64,000 bases of DNA, taken from Escherichia coli. Its GTDB lineage: Bacteria > Pseudomonadota > Gammaproteobacteria > Enterobacterales > Enterobacteriaceae. A program made the translations under genes and the position numbers. This document shows positions 26,034 to 34,151 of this stretch, piece by piece. Position 1 is the stretch's first letter, and each line of letters begins with the position of its first letter. The stretch is taken from assembly GCF_024502345.1 (NCBI RefSeq), contig NZ_JALDNN010000003.1, one strand, 5' to 3'. The notes beneath the pieces are model-generated. The model searched no databases and had not been told where the DNA came from. It saw only the letters and a list, made by a program, of their open reading frames with translations.

Positions 26034-26423
26034 GTGAGAGAACCTCGTCCACGCCATACATTACAGGTAGTCTGTGTCCCGTCTCTGAATATACAGGATC
26101 TGGGGCTAACCAGTTTTCATAGCTGGCTCTTATCAAAAGGCTATGACACGACCAATGCCAGGAACAACCGTACTTGCTGGGCAAGGGAAGGTGGCTGGCA
26201 CCTGAAGCGATGCAGACATCTGGCAACGGGCGAAGATCATTTCTGGTTTATCGCATTCAACGGTACCGGCGGCGACATTTTTCCTGTGAAAACCCAGCAG
26301 GACTACCGTGCTGCCTACCGCAAGCTTGAAGCGTATGGATATGCACCGGCCGTTATTGAACAATTGAACACAGGCGTTGCCTATAATCTTGCTTATTCAC
26401 GGACACCTGTGGGATGCAAATAA
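26034..26423 (+). CDS. hypothetical protein whose last codons overlap the Tn7-like right end
   Basis: ORF track; final 5 codons and stop lie inside the transposon terminal sequence beginning TGTGGG at 26408, so the native 3' end may have been replaced. Confidence 0.3.
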   Translation: MREPRPRHTLQVVCVPSLNIQDLGLTSFHSWLLSKGYDTTNARNNRTCWAREGGWHLKRCRHLATGEDHFWFIAFNGTGGDIFPVKTQQDYRAAYRKLEAYGYAPAVIEQLNTGVAYNLAYSRTPVGCK

Positions 26424-26475
26424 AGGTTCATCCGTATAAATAAAGTATCATCCGTATAAATAAAGTTTCATTCTG
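26408..26475 (+). repeat. Tn7-like right-end terminus: 5'-TGTGGGATG followed by three contiguous ~20-bp direct repeats (putative TnsB-binding sites)
   Basis: TGTGGGATG resembles the Tn7 terminus TGTGGGCGG; repeats GCAAATAAAGGTTCATCCGT / ATAAATAAAGTATCATCCGT / ATAAATAAAGTTTCATTCTG sit immediately upstream of tnsA, as in the Tn7 R end. Confidence 0.7.
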
Positions 26476-26527
26476 AGCCTGCATCCGCTATGTTGAGGTC
26501 ATCGACACAGCGGGGGCAGGCTTTCTC

Positions 26528-27355
26528 ATGTCTGGAACATTCAAGGGGCTGACCCAGGCCCAGATCGATAGAAGGCTCAAGGACGGGCGTGGTCAAGGCC
26601 AGGGATCAGACTACAAGCCGTTCATCTACACAAGGGACGTGTCCTCGCTGGGTCGCTCCCACCGCCTGCCTGGCAGCAAGACCCGGCGTTTACACCATCT
26701 TCTATCCGATCTTGAACTGGCCATCTTCCTGACCTTGGATCGGTCTCCCCATGTCACCGATATCCGTGAACAGTTTCCGATGCGGGTCGAAGATACGGTG
26801 CGCATCGCCGAGGAGCTTGGCCTGCCCCACGGTTGTTACAAGGGTACCCCGCAGGTACTGACCAGCGACTTTCTGGTGGATTTCGAAGATCCTCAGCGCC
26901 CGAGCATCGCGATTCAGGCCAAGTACAGTACCGACCTGCAGAAGCCTGAAGTTATCGAGAGGCTTGAGCTTGAAAGGCGCTACTGGCAGGAAAAAGGTAT
27001 TCCCTGGGTCATCGTTACGGAGCGCGAGGTATCCAAGGTGGCATTTGCCAATATCCAATGGCTCTATCCTGCCCATGCTGAAGGCGACATCGCTCAGGAC
27101 GATCTCGCCCATTACCAGCAGCTGTTTCTGCTCGAGTTTCAGCGTCACCCAGACCGGAAGCTGACCGCTATTGCCCAAGGACTGGATACCTCCGGCCAGC
27201 TGGAGGCCGGTCAGGCGCTCTATTGGCTACGCCAGTTGCTGGCCCGGCACTGTTTCCTTTTCGATCTTGACACTCCTTACCGGGAGCTGAAGCCGAAAGA
27301 CCTGGTTGCCAACTCTCATCAAATGCATCAGGAGCTGAGCAGTGTTGCCCGTTAA
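26528..27355 (+). CDS. tnsA: Tn7-like transposase endonuclease subunit TnsA
   Basis: Blocks RRLKDGRGQGQG, HHLLSDLELA, IREQFP, LELERRYWQEKGIPW match Tn7 TnsA recalled from memory. Confidence 0.9.
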   Translation: MSGTFKGLTQAQIDRRLKDGRGQGQGSDYKPFIYTRDVSSLGRSHRLPGSKTRRLHHLLSDLELAIFLTLDRSPHVTDIREQFPMRVEDTVRIAEELGLPHGCYKGTPQVLTSDFLVDFEDPQRPSIAIQAKYSTDLQKPEVIERLELERRYWQEKGIPWVIVTEREVSKVAFANIQWLYPAHAEGDIAQDDLAHYQQLFLLEFQRHPDRKLTAIAQGLDTSGQLEAGQALYWLRQLLARHCFLFDLDTPYRELKPKDLVANSHQMHQELSSVAR

Positions 27356-31032: not shown

Positions 31033-31033
31033 C

Positions 31034-32536
31034 ATGTACTTCCCCAGGCTCTACCCGGACGAACTGCTTTACAGCGGTATTGCCCGGTGCCGGGTACATC
31101 TGGGGATAGGCAGCCACAAGACCTTGCTGCACATGCTTTTCGGTGACAGCAAGGTTGCCGCGATCACCGATCTGCCCACACACCTGACTGCGTTGGCGAA
31201 CAACACGGGCTTGGATGCGGAAGGCATGATCCTGAATCACACGCTGTTCCCGCTCTATGCCCCTTTCATTCCGCCGGAGCGCCGTACCGATCTTTTTCAG
31301 GCCATGCTTGCTCCCGACCGGCCGACGATTGGTCTGTCTGGGGCCTCGACGGCCTTGGTCAAGTGGCCCGATTGGCTGCGTTACTGCCCGATCTGCTTTG
31401 AAGATATGGCTGCGCGCTACGGTGAACCCTACTGGCGGCGCAGCTGGCAGATTCAAGGGATAGATGCCTGTCCCGAGCATGGCTGTCAGCTCCTGAACTC
31501 ACCTATCCCGTTCCGTCGAGCGCAGCGGCACGAGTTTCATACAGCCTCTCCACTGTTTCTGCCCCGTGATCTTCGCGTGAGTCCCGTGGGCGAAGAGGCT
31601 ATCAGGCTCGCCAAGGCTGCTATGCAGCTGCTGGCGCTCGAAGAGGTGCAATCGCCTGGCTACGGACGCTGGACCAACCTGTACCGGTACCTGGCTACAG
31701 AGTGCGGCGCCAGGCGAGGCCGGCAGGTCAGGGCTGAAGTCATCTGGGAGAAGATCCTGGCATCCCATCAAAGGGATTGGCTTGCTGCGAACGGTCTGCT
31801 GACATCCGGAGAGCCTCCACCTTGGCTGTTGGCGATGTTCAGGAAGCATCGCAAGGGATTCAGTGCGCTGCAGCATCTGATCGTCTGGACCAGCCTGCGC
31901 CCTGGCCAGCATGCTGGCGAGCTGATCAGCGAGGCGAAGACTCGCCAGGTCGACCTTGCCTCCGAGCGGTCAGTGCAGCTGCTCCCTGCTGAGTTTGAGC
32001 AAAAGCAGCAGTACCGAGCCATTTGGCTGCAAGCACTGGCTAATCACGGTGGAGCCAAGGCAGCCAGGCAAGACGGAGCAGGGGCATGTTACGCCTGGCT
32101 CTATCGTCATGACCGACACTGGCTGATGGTTGCGAACCAGGTCAGGCAGCGCCGACAGGGCAACAACAGCCACATCGACTGGCGAGCGCGTGACATAAGG
32201 TTGGTGCGCCTGCTGATCCGGATTGGTAGAGGTAGCGAAGAAGACCTGGGCCTTCCGCGCAGGAGTCGCAACTGGTTCCTGCAGCAGCTACCCCATCGGG
32301 CATCAGTCGAGCACCGTCTCGATCAATTGCCTCTTTGCTGCACCTTCCTGGATCGCTATGCCGAGTCCGTCGGCGAGTATCAGATCCGTCGCCTGACTGC
32401 AGCGATGCTGAAGGATGTACAGACAGGCATAACGTCTAGGCGCTGGGAGCTGGAAAAGCGTTGTGGATTGGAAAAAAGCAGGGTGGCACCACTGACCACT
32501 GCGTTCATTCGATTGATAGGAAGATGGATTGAATAG
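31034..32536 (+). CDS. tnsD: Tn7-like target-selection protein TnsD (TniQ family)
   Basis: 500 aa; blocks HTLFPLYAPF, FRKHRKGFSALQH, YAWLYRHDRHWL, YAESVGEYQIRRL parallel Tn7 TnsD (HTLFPLYAPF, FRKHRKAFSYLQH, YAWLYRHDRDWL, YSESVEDYQIRRI). Confidence 0.85.
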   Translation: MYFPRLYPDELLYSGIARCRVHLGIGSHKTLLHMLFGDSKVAAITDLPTHLTALANNTGLDAEGMILNHTLFPLYAPFIPPERRTDLFQAMLAPDRPTIGLSGASTALVKWPDWLRYCPICFEDMAARYGEPYWRRSWQIQGIDACPEHGCQLLNSPIPFRRAQRHEFHTASPLFLPRDLRVSPVGEEAIRLAKAAMQLLALEEVQSPGYGRWTNLYRYLATECGARRGRQVRAEVIWEKILASHQRDWLAANGLLTSGEPPPWLLAMFRKHRKGFSALQHLIVWTSLRPGQHAGELISEAKTRQVDLASERSVQLLPAEFEQKQQYRAIWLQALANHGGAKAARQDGAGACYAWLYRHDRHWLMVANQVRQRRQGNNSHIDWRARDIRLVRLLIRIGRGSEEDLGLPRRSRNWFLQQLPHRASVEHRLDQLPLCCTFLDRYAESVGEYQIRRLTAAMLKDVQTGITSRRWELEKRCGLEKSRVAPLTTAFIRLIGRWIE

Positions 32537-34151
32537 GACAGTATTTCGTCAGATCCCGAACGGATCCAGGTTGCTGGCCGTTGGAAATTTTTTCAGGGCC
32601 AAGACTCCGGCGGCCCAGTGGCAGTTGGCGGCTCTCTTTGAGCGTAACGGTCAGCTGCAGCTGCAGCGGTTCGCACAGGAGATGTCGTGTGTCTTGGCCG
32701 TTGGTCGCGAGTTTCTTGGCGAAGAAGGGGCTCCTTATCGTCCCAGTGGTTTCAAGAAGACGGTGGTGCTTCCTGCAATAGATACCTGGCGGGAAAGGCA
32801 GTTGGGTGAGTGCCCACGTCTGGCCAGAAGGCTTGCTGCAAATCCTGAGATATCTGGACAGCGATGCTTTGTGTTCGAGGTCGATGGTCTGACCGTCTGG
32901 CTGCCGAAATTCGAGCTGGCACGAAAAATGTTCTTCCACGCAGCCTTCATCGTTCGTGCAGCCTTCGCACCGAATGGCTTGGACATGGCCTTCACGATCT
33001 ACAGAGAGGGCGATGTTGTTCATATCCATACGCCCCCGAAGACGGGGGCCCCAAGTCAGCTTCTCAAAATCAAGGGATACAGAGACCATTTCAGTTGGCT
33101 GCTGCTGAATCAGGATGTGAGGCGATCCTTCGAGTCAATCTGGCAAAGCCTCAATCAAAGGCAAGAGCGGGTACTGCAAGAGTCGGCGTATGCCAGGTGG
33201 CAGTTCGACTTTCAGGCACCCACTTCCCTCGCGGGTACCACCATGGATGTGCGAGGCCCCTTTGATCCGGAAAGCAACGAATTGCTGGTCTGGGAGATCG
33301 AAAAGCTTCAGGGGCTCCGGTTTAGCCATCGCGGTGATATTTTTTTCCATCACCCTGCTCTCAAGTTACCCGTCAGGGGAGAGAACACAGGCTGTGTATC
33401 CGTGCCATCGGGAGCGAAAGAGTTGGAGGTGGATGCTGACGAAGAGCCGACTGCTGCCAAGGAGCAGAGGTTGATTCATCTGCCCGTTGAGGGAGTCACG
33501 TTTGATGCTCAGCTGCGCACCAAGATCGCCTACAACGGGGAGCGTGCCAACGGTCATGGCAAGAAGGTCGACGACGAGCAATGCCCGAGCAGAGAAAGCC
33601 AACTCTTCGGCGTGGCTGATCCTGTGAGCGAGGGCAGCATAGCGTCAGGAGAATTCCAACAATTGGGTGAGGGAGAGGGTGATGGGGACGAGCATGAACG
33701 GCTTGCAGATCGCTTCTCGCTGCTCCGAGAGATTCTTGAACAAATCACCCAAGAGTCTGGAGTTGCGCTGGTAGCACTGGAAGTGAGGCCTCTGCCGCCC
33801 GTTCCACGTTGCAGCTACCACATGATTGATCACGAAAAATCACGCTGCTATCTGCTGGCAAGGTTCAAGCTGCAAAACGGCGATCAACGCTACCTTCTAG
33901 AAATAGATACCTCAGACAACCGGAAGACCATGTCAACGCGGATCATGGGCTTCAAAGCAGGTGTTGAGGCAGGAAAATGCATAGACAGGATCTTGAGGGG
34001 AACAGTGAAAGGCTCGTTGCGTTGGCCAGGCACCATGGCGAAGTACTGTGAGCCTTTGCACTCTGTGCATCACCCGAAAGAAAGCTCATCTGGGGCCAAC
34101 CATGCCCGGGTGTTCGACTGGAAGCAGCGGATACGCGCGGCCCTAGGCTGA
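32529..34151 (+). CDS. tnsE: Tn7-like TnsE-like target-selection protein
   Basis: 540 aa, after tnsD; blocks [11 protein letters not shown] and C-terminal [19 protein letters not shown] ... HHPKE parallel Tn7 TnsE (PQLELARSLFL; LLEVDASDGVKMLSTKVLSG ... NHPKG). Confidence 0.7.

What the first reader, a model, noticed from the sequence alone, without database searches (positions are those of the whole stretch)
26408..34151. Tn7-like element (tnsABCDE) with a canonical-looking right end, no glmS, and a terminus that overlaps an unrelated ORF
The left boundary reads TGTGGGATG followed by three contiguous ~20-bp direct repeats (26416-26475) and then tnsA, which is the Tn7 R-end layout. TnsD carries blocks close to the glmS-recognising Tn7 TnsD, yet no glmS lies upstream; instead the terminus overlaps the last codons of hypothetical ORF 26034..26423. 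That suggests TnsE-type (plasmid or lagging-strand) insertion or later rearrangement. I could not find the inverted copies of the end repeats (a left end) anywhere downstream, so the far end appears to have been lost or replaced, plausibly by the IS21/IS66 debris at 34.2-35.0 kb or by IS26 at 47569.
Basis: partly seen in the sequence, partly recalled or inferred. Interest (0 to 1): 0.6.

Follow-up and report, generated by a model that had tools for sequence, protein, structure and literature searches.

The report
Truncated Tn7-family heat-resistance transposon on plasmid
This is the right-hand 21 kb of a known 29-kb Tn7-family transposon that carries a heat-resistance island; it landed inside a plasmid backbone gene and later lost its far end to IS26, so it is an ordinary, stranded mobile element.

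Summary
At 26408 a Tn7-type right end (TGTGGGATG plus three 20-bp-spaced TnsB-type sites) precedes intact tnsA, B, C, D and E (26528-34151). The proteins are 41-44% (A-C), 35% (TnsD N-terminal part) and 27% (TnsE C-terminal domain) identical to Tn7, and the catalytic residues are conserved.

The element is known. Complete copies of about 28.9 kb with 5-bp target duplications carry the heat-resistance island LHR/tLST (clpK, ftsH, shsp, yfdX and others). They occur on S. Senftenberg 775W plasmid pSSE-ATCC-43845 and in E. coli chromosomes. Close relatives sit 24-26 nt downstream of glmS in E. coli, Pantoea and Pseudomonas, so TnsD uses the canonical attTn7.

The window copy is not at glmS. It interrupts a 268-aa HNH endonuclease gene of the IncHI backbone, and ORF 26034-26423 is that gene's 5' part. 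This fits the TnsE (plasmid-targeting) pathway, which is an inference.

No left end exists in the window. The element is collinear with intact copies up to 47568, where IS26 (47569-48388) replaces the last ~7.7 kb. The IS21/IS66 debris at 34.2-35.0 kb is internal, conserved cargo, not the break point.

Verdict: already known, low interest.

The parts
26034..26423 (+). Target gene remnant. It is the 5' part (about 125 codons) of an IncHI backbone HNH endonuclease gene, fused to 4 codons (VGCK) and a stop codon from the transposon end.
   Evidence: The intact 268-aa gene (WP_001209044.1) is seen in the empty site of Citrobacter plasmid NZ_CP029729.1 and in R27/pHCM1-type plasmids. The empty site reads ...ACGGACACC|GTTAAAACGCC.
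26403..26407 (.). ACACC, the 5 bp abutting the right end. This is the presumed target duplication copy; the second copy is lost.
   Evidence: Complete copies elsewhere have 5-bp duplications. No record holds the matching left junction.
26408..26477 (+). Transposon right end: terminal TGTGGGATGC followed by three contiguous 20-bp-spaced TnsB-type binding repeats at 26418-26433, 26438-26453 and 26458-26473.
   Evidence: Homology with all other copies begins exactly here. Canonical Tn7R (TGTGGGCGGACAATAAAGTC...) is shown for comparison.
26528..27355 (+). tnsA (275 aa), the endonuclease subunit of the heteromeric transposase.
   Evidence: PDB 1f1z, E=1.9e-60. 41% identical to Tn7 TnsA. E63, D114 and K132 are conserved.
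27342..29429 (+). tnsB (695 aa from GTG; PGAP alternatively starts it at 27369), the DDE transposase.
   Evidence: PDB 7pik, E=2e-187. 44% identical to Tn7 TnsB. DDE residues D272, D360 and E395 are conserved.
29422..31032 (+). tnsC (536 aa), the AAA+ regulator.
   Evidence: PDB 7mbw, E=1e-122. 41% identical to Tn7 TnsC. Walker A GCSGCGKT at residue 141.
31034..32536 (+). tnsD (500 aa), the attTn7 (glmS) target selector.
   Evidence: PDB 8glu_X Tn7 TnsD(1-318), E=1.3e-46, 35% identity, CxxC...CxxH conserved. Pfam TniQ plus TnsD. Relatives occupy glmS sites.
32529..34151 (+). tnsE (540 aa from TTG; 526 aa from the ATG at 32571 in PGAP), the selector for replicating or conjugating DNA.
   Evidence: PDB 5d16 Tn7 TnsE C-terminal domain, E=1.7e-10, 27% identity. 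Pfam TnsE_C, 8.7e-44. [11 protein letters not shown] at residue 126.
34200..35010 (.). IS21 (IstB Walker-A) and IS66 (TnpA, transposase C-terminus) fragments. They are internal to the element and are not its boundary.
   Evidence: The same fragments occur in complete copies (annotated 'transposase' at L002 10365-10628; collinearity).
35513..47557 (+). Cargo: the LHR/tLST heat-resistance island, truncated. HTH regulator 35513-35794; sHSP 35830-36399; clpK 36497-39346; cls 39363-40793; ftsH 40821-42650; hsp20-GI 42729-43187; yfdX1 43209-44117; yfdX2 44220-45107; hdeD-GI 45197-45805; MscS-like channel 46646-47557.
   Evidence: Annotation of near-identical records L004 and L001, mapped as window = L004 + 22368.
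47569..48388 (+). IS26 (820 bp) at the point where the transposon is cut off. About 7.7 kb is missing: trx, kefB, diguanylate cyclase, psiE, htpX, degP and the left end.
   Evidence: The missing part is defined by L002 23202-30926.

Best explanation
Window 26408-47568 is the right-hand 21.2 kb of a ~28.9-kb Tn7-family cut-and-paste transposon whose cargo is the LHR/tLST heat-resistance island.

Mechanism, from established Tn7 biology. TnsA and TnsB cut both strands at the TGT...ACA termini. TnsC (AAA+) couples the transposase to a target selector. TnsD directs insertion about 25 bp downstream of glmS. TnsE directs insertion into replicating or conjugating DNA. Insertion leaves a 5-bp duplication.

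History of this copy. It inserted, most likely through TnsE, into an HNH endonuclease gene of an IncHI-type conjugative plasmid, after ...ACACC. An IS26-associated deletion or rearrangement later removed the left ~7.7 kb, including the left end.

Consequence. With only one end, this copy can no longer transpose as a unit. Its tns genes remain intact and could act in trans.

Shown: homology, end architecture, the exact junction, the empty site, glmS occupancy and target duplications of other copies, and the truncation point. Inferred: use of the TnsE pathway, the order of events, and present-day activity of the Tns proteins.
For: All five proteins are homologous to Tn7 TnsA-E, and the catalytic residues are conserved.

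The right end has three contiguous sites. The left end of intact copies has three dispersed sites at offsets 12, 157 and 212. This is the Tn7 end asymmetry.

Four complete copies of 28.6-29.1 kb carry perfect 5-bp duplications: pSSE-ATCC-43845 GCTGC, E. coli G3/10 ACTGG, strain 81 GTTGC, and strain 873.10 AGCGG at attTn7.

Right ends lie 24-26 nt after the glmS stop codon in E. coli, Pantoea and several Pseudomonas genomes.

The window junction is exact. Backbone homology in empty-site plasmids runs through the insertion point.

Five distinct non-glmS sites carry the identical right end. All are on plasmids or in mobile-looking chromosomal DNA, and none resembles attTn7 (8-12 of 37 positions, about the 25% expected by chance for four bases).

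The window is collinear with an intact copy up to 47568 and IS26 starts at 47569.

G+C is 55-67% in the element against about 49% in the backbone.

Published context: a Tn7-like transposon carrying an LHR-syntenic cargo in P. aeruginosa (PMC8012707); tLST can be flanked by Tn7 elements (PMC8290217); TLPQC-1 on pSSE (PMC5347186).
Against: The TnsE step is inferred only. The left junction, and with it the 5-bp duplication at this site, is missing from the window and from every plasmid in PLSDB that shares the site. The orientation bias expected of TnsE insertions was not tested. NCBIfam models gave no hit for TnsA, C, D or E, so family assignment rests on PDB and Pfam homology. The cargo gene names come from database annotation of near-identical records, not from tests done here.
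Confidence: 0.88

Rival explanations
1. TnsD, not TnsE, placed the element here by using a pseudo-attTn7 site in the HNH gene.
For: From prior knowledge, Tn7 TnsABC+D can use glmS-like pseudo-sites at low frequency. The right end faces the 3' direction of an ORF, as it does at glmS.
Against: The 75 nt upstream of the junction match E. coli attTn7 at 18 of 75 positions, and 12 of 37 in the TnsD-binding register. The chance expectation for four bases is about 25%, and the other four non-glmS sites give similar values. The insertion lies inside the gene, not downstream of it.
Confidence: 0.05
2. The element ended at or was cut by the IS21/IS66 debris just after tnsE, and the heat-resistance genes downstream are an unrelated island.
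For: IS21 and IS66 fragments do lie at 34.2-35.0 kb.
Against: The same fragments and the same downstream genes lie between the two ends of complete, duplication-flanked copies. The window aligns as one 21,174-bp block at 99.7% to such a copy.
Confidence: 0.02
3. The segment reached this plasmid by recombination or IS26-mediated translocation of a pre-truncated fragment, not by transposition into the HNH gene.
For: Three IS26 copies lie in the window. The left junction is missing in all plasmids that share the site.
Against: The right junction is a clean transposon terminus abutting uninterrupted backbone sequence at single-nucleotide precision. No IS or homology tract lies at that junction. 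This is the signature of transposition.
Confidence: 0.05

Closest known systems
Tn7 (prototype; TnsABCDE, attTn7 downstream of glmS)
   Same: The gene order tnsA-B-C-D-E is read inward from the right end. Termini are TGTGGG... with an AATAAAG-containing TnsB repeat. The right end has contiguous sites and the left end has dispersed sites. Target duplications are 5 bp. Insertion lies about 25 nt downstream of glmS with the right end proximal. There is a second, TnsE-type selector. Catalytic residues are conserved.
   Different: Protein identity is only 27-44%. The right end has three sites spaced 20 bp apart, whereas Tn7R has four 22-bp sites (the Tn7 figure is from memory; the Tn7R sequence is). 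The cargo is a heat and stress tolerance island instead of the class 2 integron. G+C is high (55-67%).
Tn7-like transposon carrying tdcA and LHR-syntenic genes in the P. aeruginosa CF39S chromosome (Almblad et al. 2021, PMC8012707)
   Same: [quoted passage not shown] Complete copies of the present element also carry a diguanylate cyclase gene between kefB and psiE.
   Different: I could not fetch that sequence to compare ends or identity. The window copy has lost the part that would hold the cyclase.
TLPQC-1 / LHR / tLST on pSSE-ATCC-43845 of S. Senftenberg 775W (Nguyen et al. 2017, PMC5347186)
   Same: The tns block is 100% identical, and identity is 99.7% across the whole 21.2 kb retained in the window. 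That copy is complete: 28,898 bp with a GCTGC duplication.
   Different: That paper trimmed flanking mobile genes and never uses the term Tn7. The window copy sits at another site and is truncated by IS26.
Other heteromeric-transposase elements (Tn6022/AbaR, Tn5053/Tn402 with TniABQ, CRISPR-associated transposons)
   Same: They share TnsB/TniA-like DDE transposases, TnsC/TniB-like ATPases and TniQ-domain selectors. PDB hits to type I-F and V-K TnsB proteins have E-values of 1e-11 to 1e-17.
   Different: Those elements lack TnsE and do not use glmS via a TnsD of this type. The present proteins are far closer to Tn7 itself (E=1e-187 for TnsB).

Membership tests
Tn7 family (prototypic TnsABCDE transposons) | Heteromeric transposase: TnsA endonuclease (E63/D114/K132) plus TnsB DDE transposase | tested here: met
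   E=2e-60 and 2e-187 against the Tn7 proteins, and all six catalytic residues align.
Tn7 family (prototypic TnsABCDE transposons) | TnsC AAA+ regulator with Walker A motif | tested here: met
   E=1e-122, 41% identity, GCSGCGKT.
Tn7 family (prototypic TnsABCDE transposons) | TnsD (TniQ plus TnsD domains) that directs insertion downstream of glmS, right end proximal | tested here: met
   Protein evidence. Site occupancy by family members: 24-26 nt after the glmS stop codon in E. coli 873.10, Pantoea and Pseudomonas. The window copy itself is not at glmS.
Tn7 family (prototypic TnsABCDE transposons) | TnsE second target selector | tested here: met
   (TnsE_C, 8.7e-44). The motif [11 protein letters not shown] resembles the Tn7 TnsE clamp-binding motif, which I recall from memory.
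Tn7 family (prototypic TnsABCDE transposons) | Asymmetric ends: TGT...ACA termini, clustered TnsB sites at the right end, dispersed sites at the left end | tested here: met
   The right end is in the window. The left end is seen only in complete copies elsewhere.
Tn7 family (prototypic TnsABCDE transposons) | 5-bp target-site duplication | tested here: inconclusive
   For the window copy the left junction is absent. The feature is met in four complete copies and four of five miniature derivatives elsewhere.
Tn7 family (prototypic TnsABCDE transposons) | Both ends present, so the copy is a complete and mobilisable unit | tested here: not met
   There is no left end in the window or in the best-matching plasmid NZ_LR890350.1. 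This copy is a truncated remnant of a family member.
TnsE-pathway insertion | Target on a conjugative plasmid or other mobile or replicating DNA, with no att-like sequence | tested here: met
   The target is IncHI backbone. Similarity to attTn7 is no better than chance.
TnsE-pathway insertion | Single orientation relative to lagging-strand or conjugal replication, and dependence on tnsE | not tested
   This needs oriT and replication polarity for many independent insertions, or genetics.
LHR / tLST heat-resistance island | Core genes: HTH regulator, sHSP, clpK/clpG, then ftsH, shsp-GI, yfdX1/2, hdeD, trx, kefB, psiE, htpX, degP | tested here: inconclusive
   By annotation of near-identical records, the genes from the HTH regulator to hdeD plus an MscS-like gene are present. 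The genes from trx to degP are missing because of IS26. No phenotype was tested.

The most novel reading that the evidence does not exclude
This Tn7-family element may be the main vehicle that moved the LHR/tLST heat-resistance island from attTn7 sites in Pseudomonas- or Pantoea-like chromosomes onto enterobacterial conjugative plasmids through its TnsE pathway. The LHR literature that I could search has not mapped its exact limits (~28.9 kb, TGTGGGATGC termini, 5-bp duplication). Stranded copies such as this one keep a full tnsABCDE set and could mobilise in trans the ~328-bp miniature derivatives seen in Pseudomonas.
Probability: 0.35. Interest if true: 0.35.

Novelty: already known. Interest (0 to 1): 0.15.

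Why it matters
The practical value is in annotation. The 'hypothetical' ORF is a disrupted backbone HNH endonuclease gene. The heat-resistance genes downstream are transposon cargo. This copy can no longer move on its own, so its spread now depends on the plasmid and on IS26.

More broadly, the data set records one Tn7-family element using both target pathways in nature: glmS in chromosomes, and varied sites in plasmids and other mobile DNA. This helps explain how clpK/LHR heat and chlorine tolerance spreads among food-borne and clinical Enterobacteriaceae. None of this changes current understanding of Tn7 biology.

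Tried and rejected
1. I searched the window for inverted copies of the end or repeat motif, with up to 2 mismatches and with a general inverted-repeat scan. None was found.

2. I first suspected that the sil/pco copper and silver island (CHASRI) was the cargo. In pSSE-ATCC-43845 it lies beyond the left end, so it is outside the element.

3. I looked for the left end in pKL53-L, which shares the window's insertion site. It is absent; homology stops after degP, next to IS110-family elements.

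4. I built the predicted left junction (left end + ACACC + the rest of the HNH gene) and searched PLSDB. None of 248 matching records spans it. The downstream half of the HNH gene is also absent from the window.

5. NCBIfam gave no usable hits for TnsA, C, D or E, so I used PDB and Pfam instead.

6. The pseudo-attTn7 hypothesis was rejected because similarity is no better than the ~25% expected by chance.

7. The IS21/IS66 debris as the break point was rejected.

8. Two Tn7-bearing plasmids that I fetched for protein comparison were cut after tnsC. TnsD and TnsE identities were therefore taken from the PDB alignments.

9. Literature searches for a formal Tn number or a detailed description of this element as the LHR carrier found only brief mentions. 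One search call failed on a term-length limit.

Full report

Yes. The + strand at 26408 reads TGTGGGATGCAAATAAAGGTTCATCCGTATAAATAAAGTATCATCCGTATAAATAAAGTTTCATTCTGAG. The 16-mer motif AAATAAAGNWTCATYC occurs three times, at 26418, 26438 and 26458. All three are on the + strand, and the motif occurs nowhere else in the 64 kb on either strand. The expectation is 0.33, and 0 of 100 shuffles reached 3 matches. Tandem Repeats Finder gives period 20, 2.7 copies and score 94.

Five co-directional ORFs follow: 26528-27355, 27342-29429, 29422-31032, 31034-32536 and 32529-34151. ORF 26034-26423 ends 16 nt inside the terminus.

**2. Are these tns genes?**

Each protein hits the matching Tn7 protein among solved structures:

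| Protein | PDB entry | E-value |
|---|---|---|
| TnsA | 1f1z | 1.9e-60 |
| TnsB | 7pik | 2e-187 |
| TnsC | 7mbw | 1e-122 |
| TnsD | 8glu_X (residues 1-318) | 1.3e-46 |
| TnsE, C-terminal domain | 5d16 | 1.7e-10 |

- Pfam finds TniQ plus TnsD domains in TnsD and TnsE_C (8.7e-44) in TnsE.
- Identity to canonical Tn7, taken from a Proteus plasmid (L041), is 41% for TnsA, 44% for TnsB and 41% for TnsC.
- From the printed PDB alignments, TnsD (N-terminal 300 aa) is 35% identical and the TnsE C-terminal domain 27%.
- TnsA E63/D114/K132, TnsB D272/D360/E395 and the TnsC Walker A motif align with the Tn7 catalytic residues.
- TnsE carries [11 protein letters not shown] at residue 126. This resembles the Tn7 TnsE clamp-binding motif PQLELARALFL, which I cite from memory.
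- NCBIfam models gave nothing useful.

**3. What is the whole element?**

The tns block is 100% identical to many public plasmids. The window as a whole is closest to E. coli MSB1_9D plasmid 2.

On S. Senftenberg 775W plasmid pSSE-ATCC-43845 the same right end is matched by an inverted left end 28,898 bp away. The left end has three dispersed sites at offsets 12, 157 and 212. The two ends are flanked by a perfect GCTGC duplication.

Between the ends lie tnsABCDE, the small IS21/IS66 fragments, and the LHR/tLST (TLPQC-1) heat-resistance island. The island genes are an HTH regulator, sHSP, clpK, cls, ftsH, shsp-GI, yfdX1/2, hdeD, an MscS-like gene, trx, kefB, a diguanylate cyclase, psiE, htpX and degP. 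The sil/pco island lies beyond the left end and is not cargo.

Three more complete copies of 28.6-29.1 kb in E. coli chromosomes also have perfect 5-bp duplications:
- ACTGG in strain G3/10, inside a UvrD-helicase-domain gene.
- GTTGC in strain 81, inside an integrase gene next to phage genes.
- AGCGG in strain 873.10, at attTn7.

**4. Which target pathways does the family use?**

A scan of one genome per species with the shared terminus found 26 loci. Many right ends lie 24-26 nt after a glmS stop codon (...VDQPRNLAKSVTVE*). These are in Pantoea (two species, one with a right end identical to the window's over 90 nt), in several Pseudomonas genomes and in a Pseudomonadales MAG. Duplications were readable in Pantoea: GCCCA and GGCCC.

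In E. coli 873.10 the element sits between glmS and pstS, 24 nt after the glmS stop codon. That is the classical attTn7.

The window's exact variant also occurs at five distinct non-glmS sites, all on plasmids or in mobile-looking DNA. None resembles attTn7: 8-12 of 37 positions match in the TnsD-binding register, which is about the 25% expected by chance for four bases. With an intact tnsE, the TnsE pathway is the best explanation for the window insertion. This is an inference. Orientation bias and tnsE dependence were not tested.

**5. What is the overlapped ORF?**

Plasmids with the same backbone but no transposon (R27, pHCM1 and a Citrobacter IncHI1A plasmid) carry a 268-aa HNH endonuclease gene here. 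The empty site reads ...ACGGACACC|GTTAAAACGCC.

ORF 26034-26423 is the first ~125 codons of that gene, plus VGCK and a stop codon supplied by the transposon end. The expected duplication is ACACC. The downstream half of the gene is not in the window. No PLSDB record spans the predicted left junction. pKL53-L, which shares the site, also lacks a left end.

Among 5,426 complete E. coli genomes, the right end occurs in 33 and the left end in only 16. The best-matching plasmid is not among those 16.

**6. Where is the element broken?**

Window 26407-47568 aligns as a single 21,174-bp block at 99.7% to the complete pSSE copy. IS26 begins at 47569 with GGCACTGTTGCAAA. Unrelated DNA follows it.

About 7.7 kb is therefore missing, running from trx to degP and including the left end. 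The IS21/IS66 fragments at 34.2-35.0 kb are part of every complete copy. They are not the break point.

**7. Mechanism and status**

By homology with Tn7, this is a cut-and-paste element. TnsA and TnsB act at paired ends, TnsC serves as the adaptor, and TnsD and TnsE are alternative target selectors.

The window copy has one end only, so it is stranded. Its tns genes match those of complete copies and could act in trans. G+C of 55-67% against about 49% in the backbone fits an origin in a higher-G+C host. Nguyen et al. also noted this for TLPQC (PMC5347186).

**8. Comparison with the literature, and novelty**

- Almblad et al. 2021 (PMC8012707) drew a Tn7-like transposon with LHR-syntenic cargo in P. 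aeruginosa.
- Kamal et al. 2021 (PMC8290217) state that Tn7 elements can flank tLST.
- Nguyen et al. 2017 described TLPQC-1 on pSSE but trimmed the flanking mobile genes.
- Public annotation already names TnsA-E in dozens of identical records.

The thing is therefore already known. What this analysis adds is precise limits, the disrupted target gene, the true break point, and a catalogue of glmS and non-glmS insertions. Interest is low.

Noticed in passing
L014 6614-6941, L015 3549-3876 (P. alcaligenes NBRC 14159); L020 662-988, L021 4188-4515, L022 8834-9160 (P. oleovorans DSM 1045): These are 327-328-bp miniature, gene-less derivatives of this transposon family. Each has both TGTGGGATGC termini, three spaced left-type sites and two contiguous right-type sites. 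Four of the five have perfect 5-bp duplications. Two sit at glmS and the others elsewhere, so they appear to be mobilised in trans.
   Followed up: partly
L029 ~1700-1745 (Pseudomonas sp. NW5): A left end (...TTTATTTTCATCCCACA) is followed after only 5 bp (CCGTG) by another TGTGGGATGC end. Two related elements apparently abut head to tail.
   Followed up: no
L013 and L014 (P. alcaligenes NBRC 14159): One genome shows two different glmS 3' ends and both are occupied: one by a full-type right end, the other by a miniature element. This suggests two glmS copies or a carried glmS fragment.
   Followed up: no
window 11787-12609, 47569-48388, 53743-54562: There are three IS26 copies; the first is inverted relative to the other two. 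The 48.4-53.7 kb segment between the last two holds a ferritin-like gene, an IS5-family element and a relE/parE toxin-antitoxin pair in the matching plasmid.
   Followed up: partly
window 54563-64000: In the matching record this plasmid stretch carries chromosome-like genes: dmsB/C-like genes, uspG, rnk, rna, citT, citG, citX and citF. They appear to have been captured next to IS26.
   Followed up: no
window ~1-22000: By annotation of the matching plasmid pKL53-L, a tellurite-resistance (ter) cluster lies upstream of the insertion site: terZ, A, B, C, D, E, terW, terY and associated genes.
   Followed up: no
window 35420-35794: The first cargo gene, a small HTH protein, scores just under the NCBIfam cut-off for the MADS1 anti-phage helix-turn-helix protein (78.5 against 80 bits). 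It also hits the excisionase family.
   Followed up: no
L002 30927 onward and L003 (pSSE-ATCC-43845): The sil/pco copper and silver island lies about 3 kb beyond the left end of the heat-resistance transposon, after IS5 and IS1. The two islands are neighbours, but only the heat-resistance island lies within the Tn7-type ends.
   Followed up: partly
E. coli strain 873.10: chromosome NZ_CP061754.1 14195-42794 and plasmid NZ_CP061755.1 26563-53495: One strain holds two related copies: a 98% variant at chromosomal attTn7 and the 100% variant on its plasmid. The same plasmid still has the HNH site empty.
   Followed up: partly
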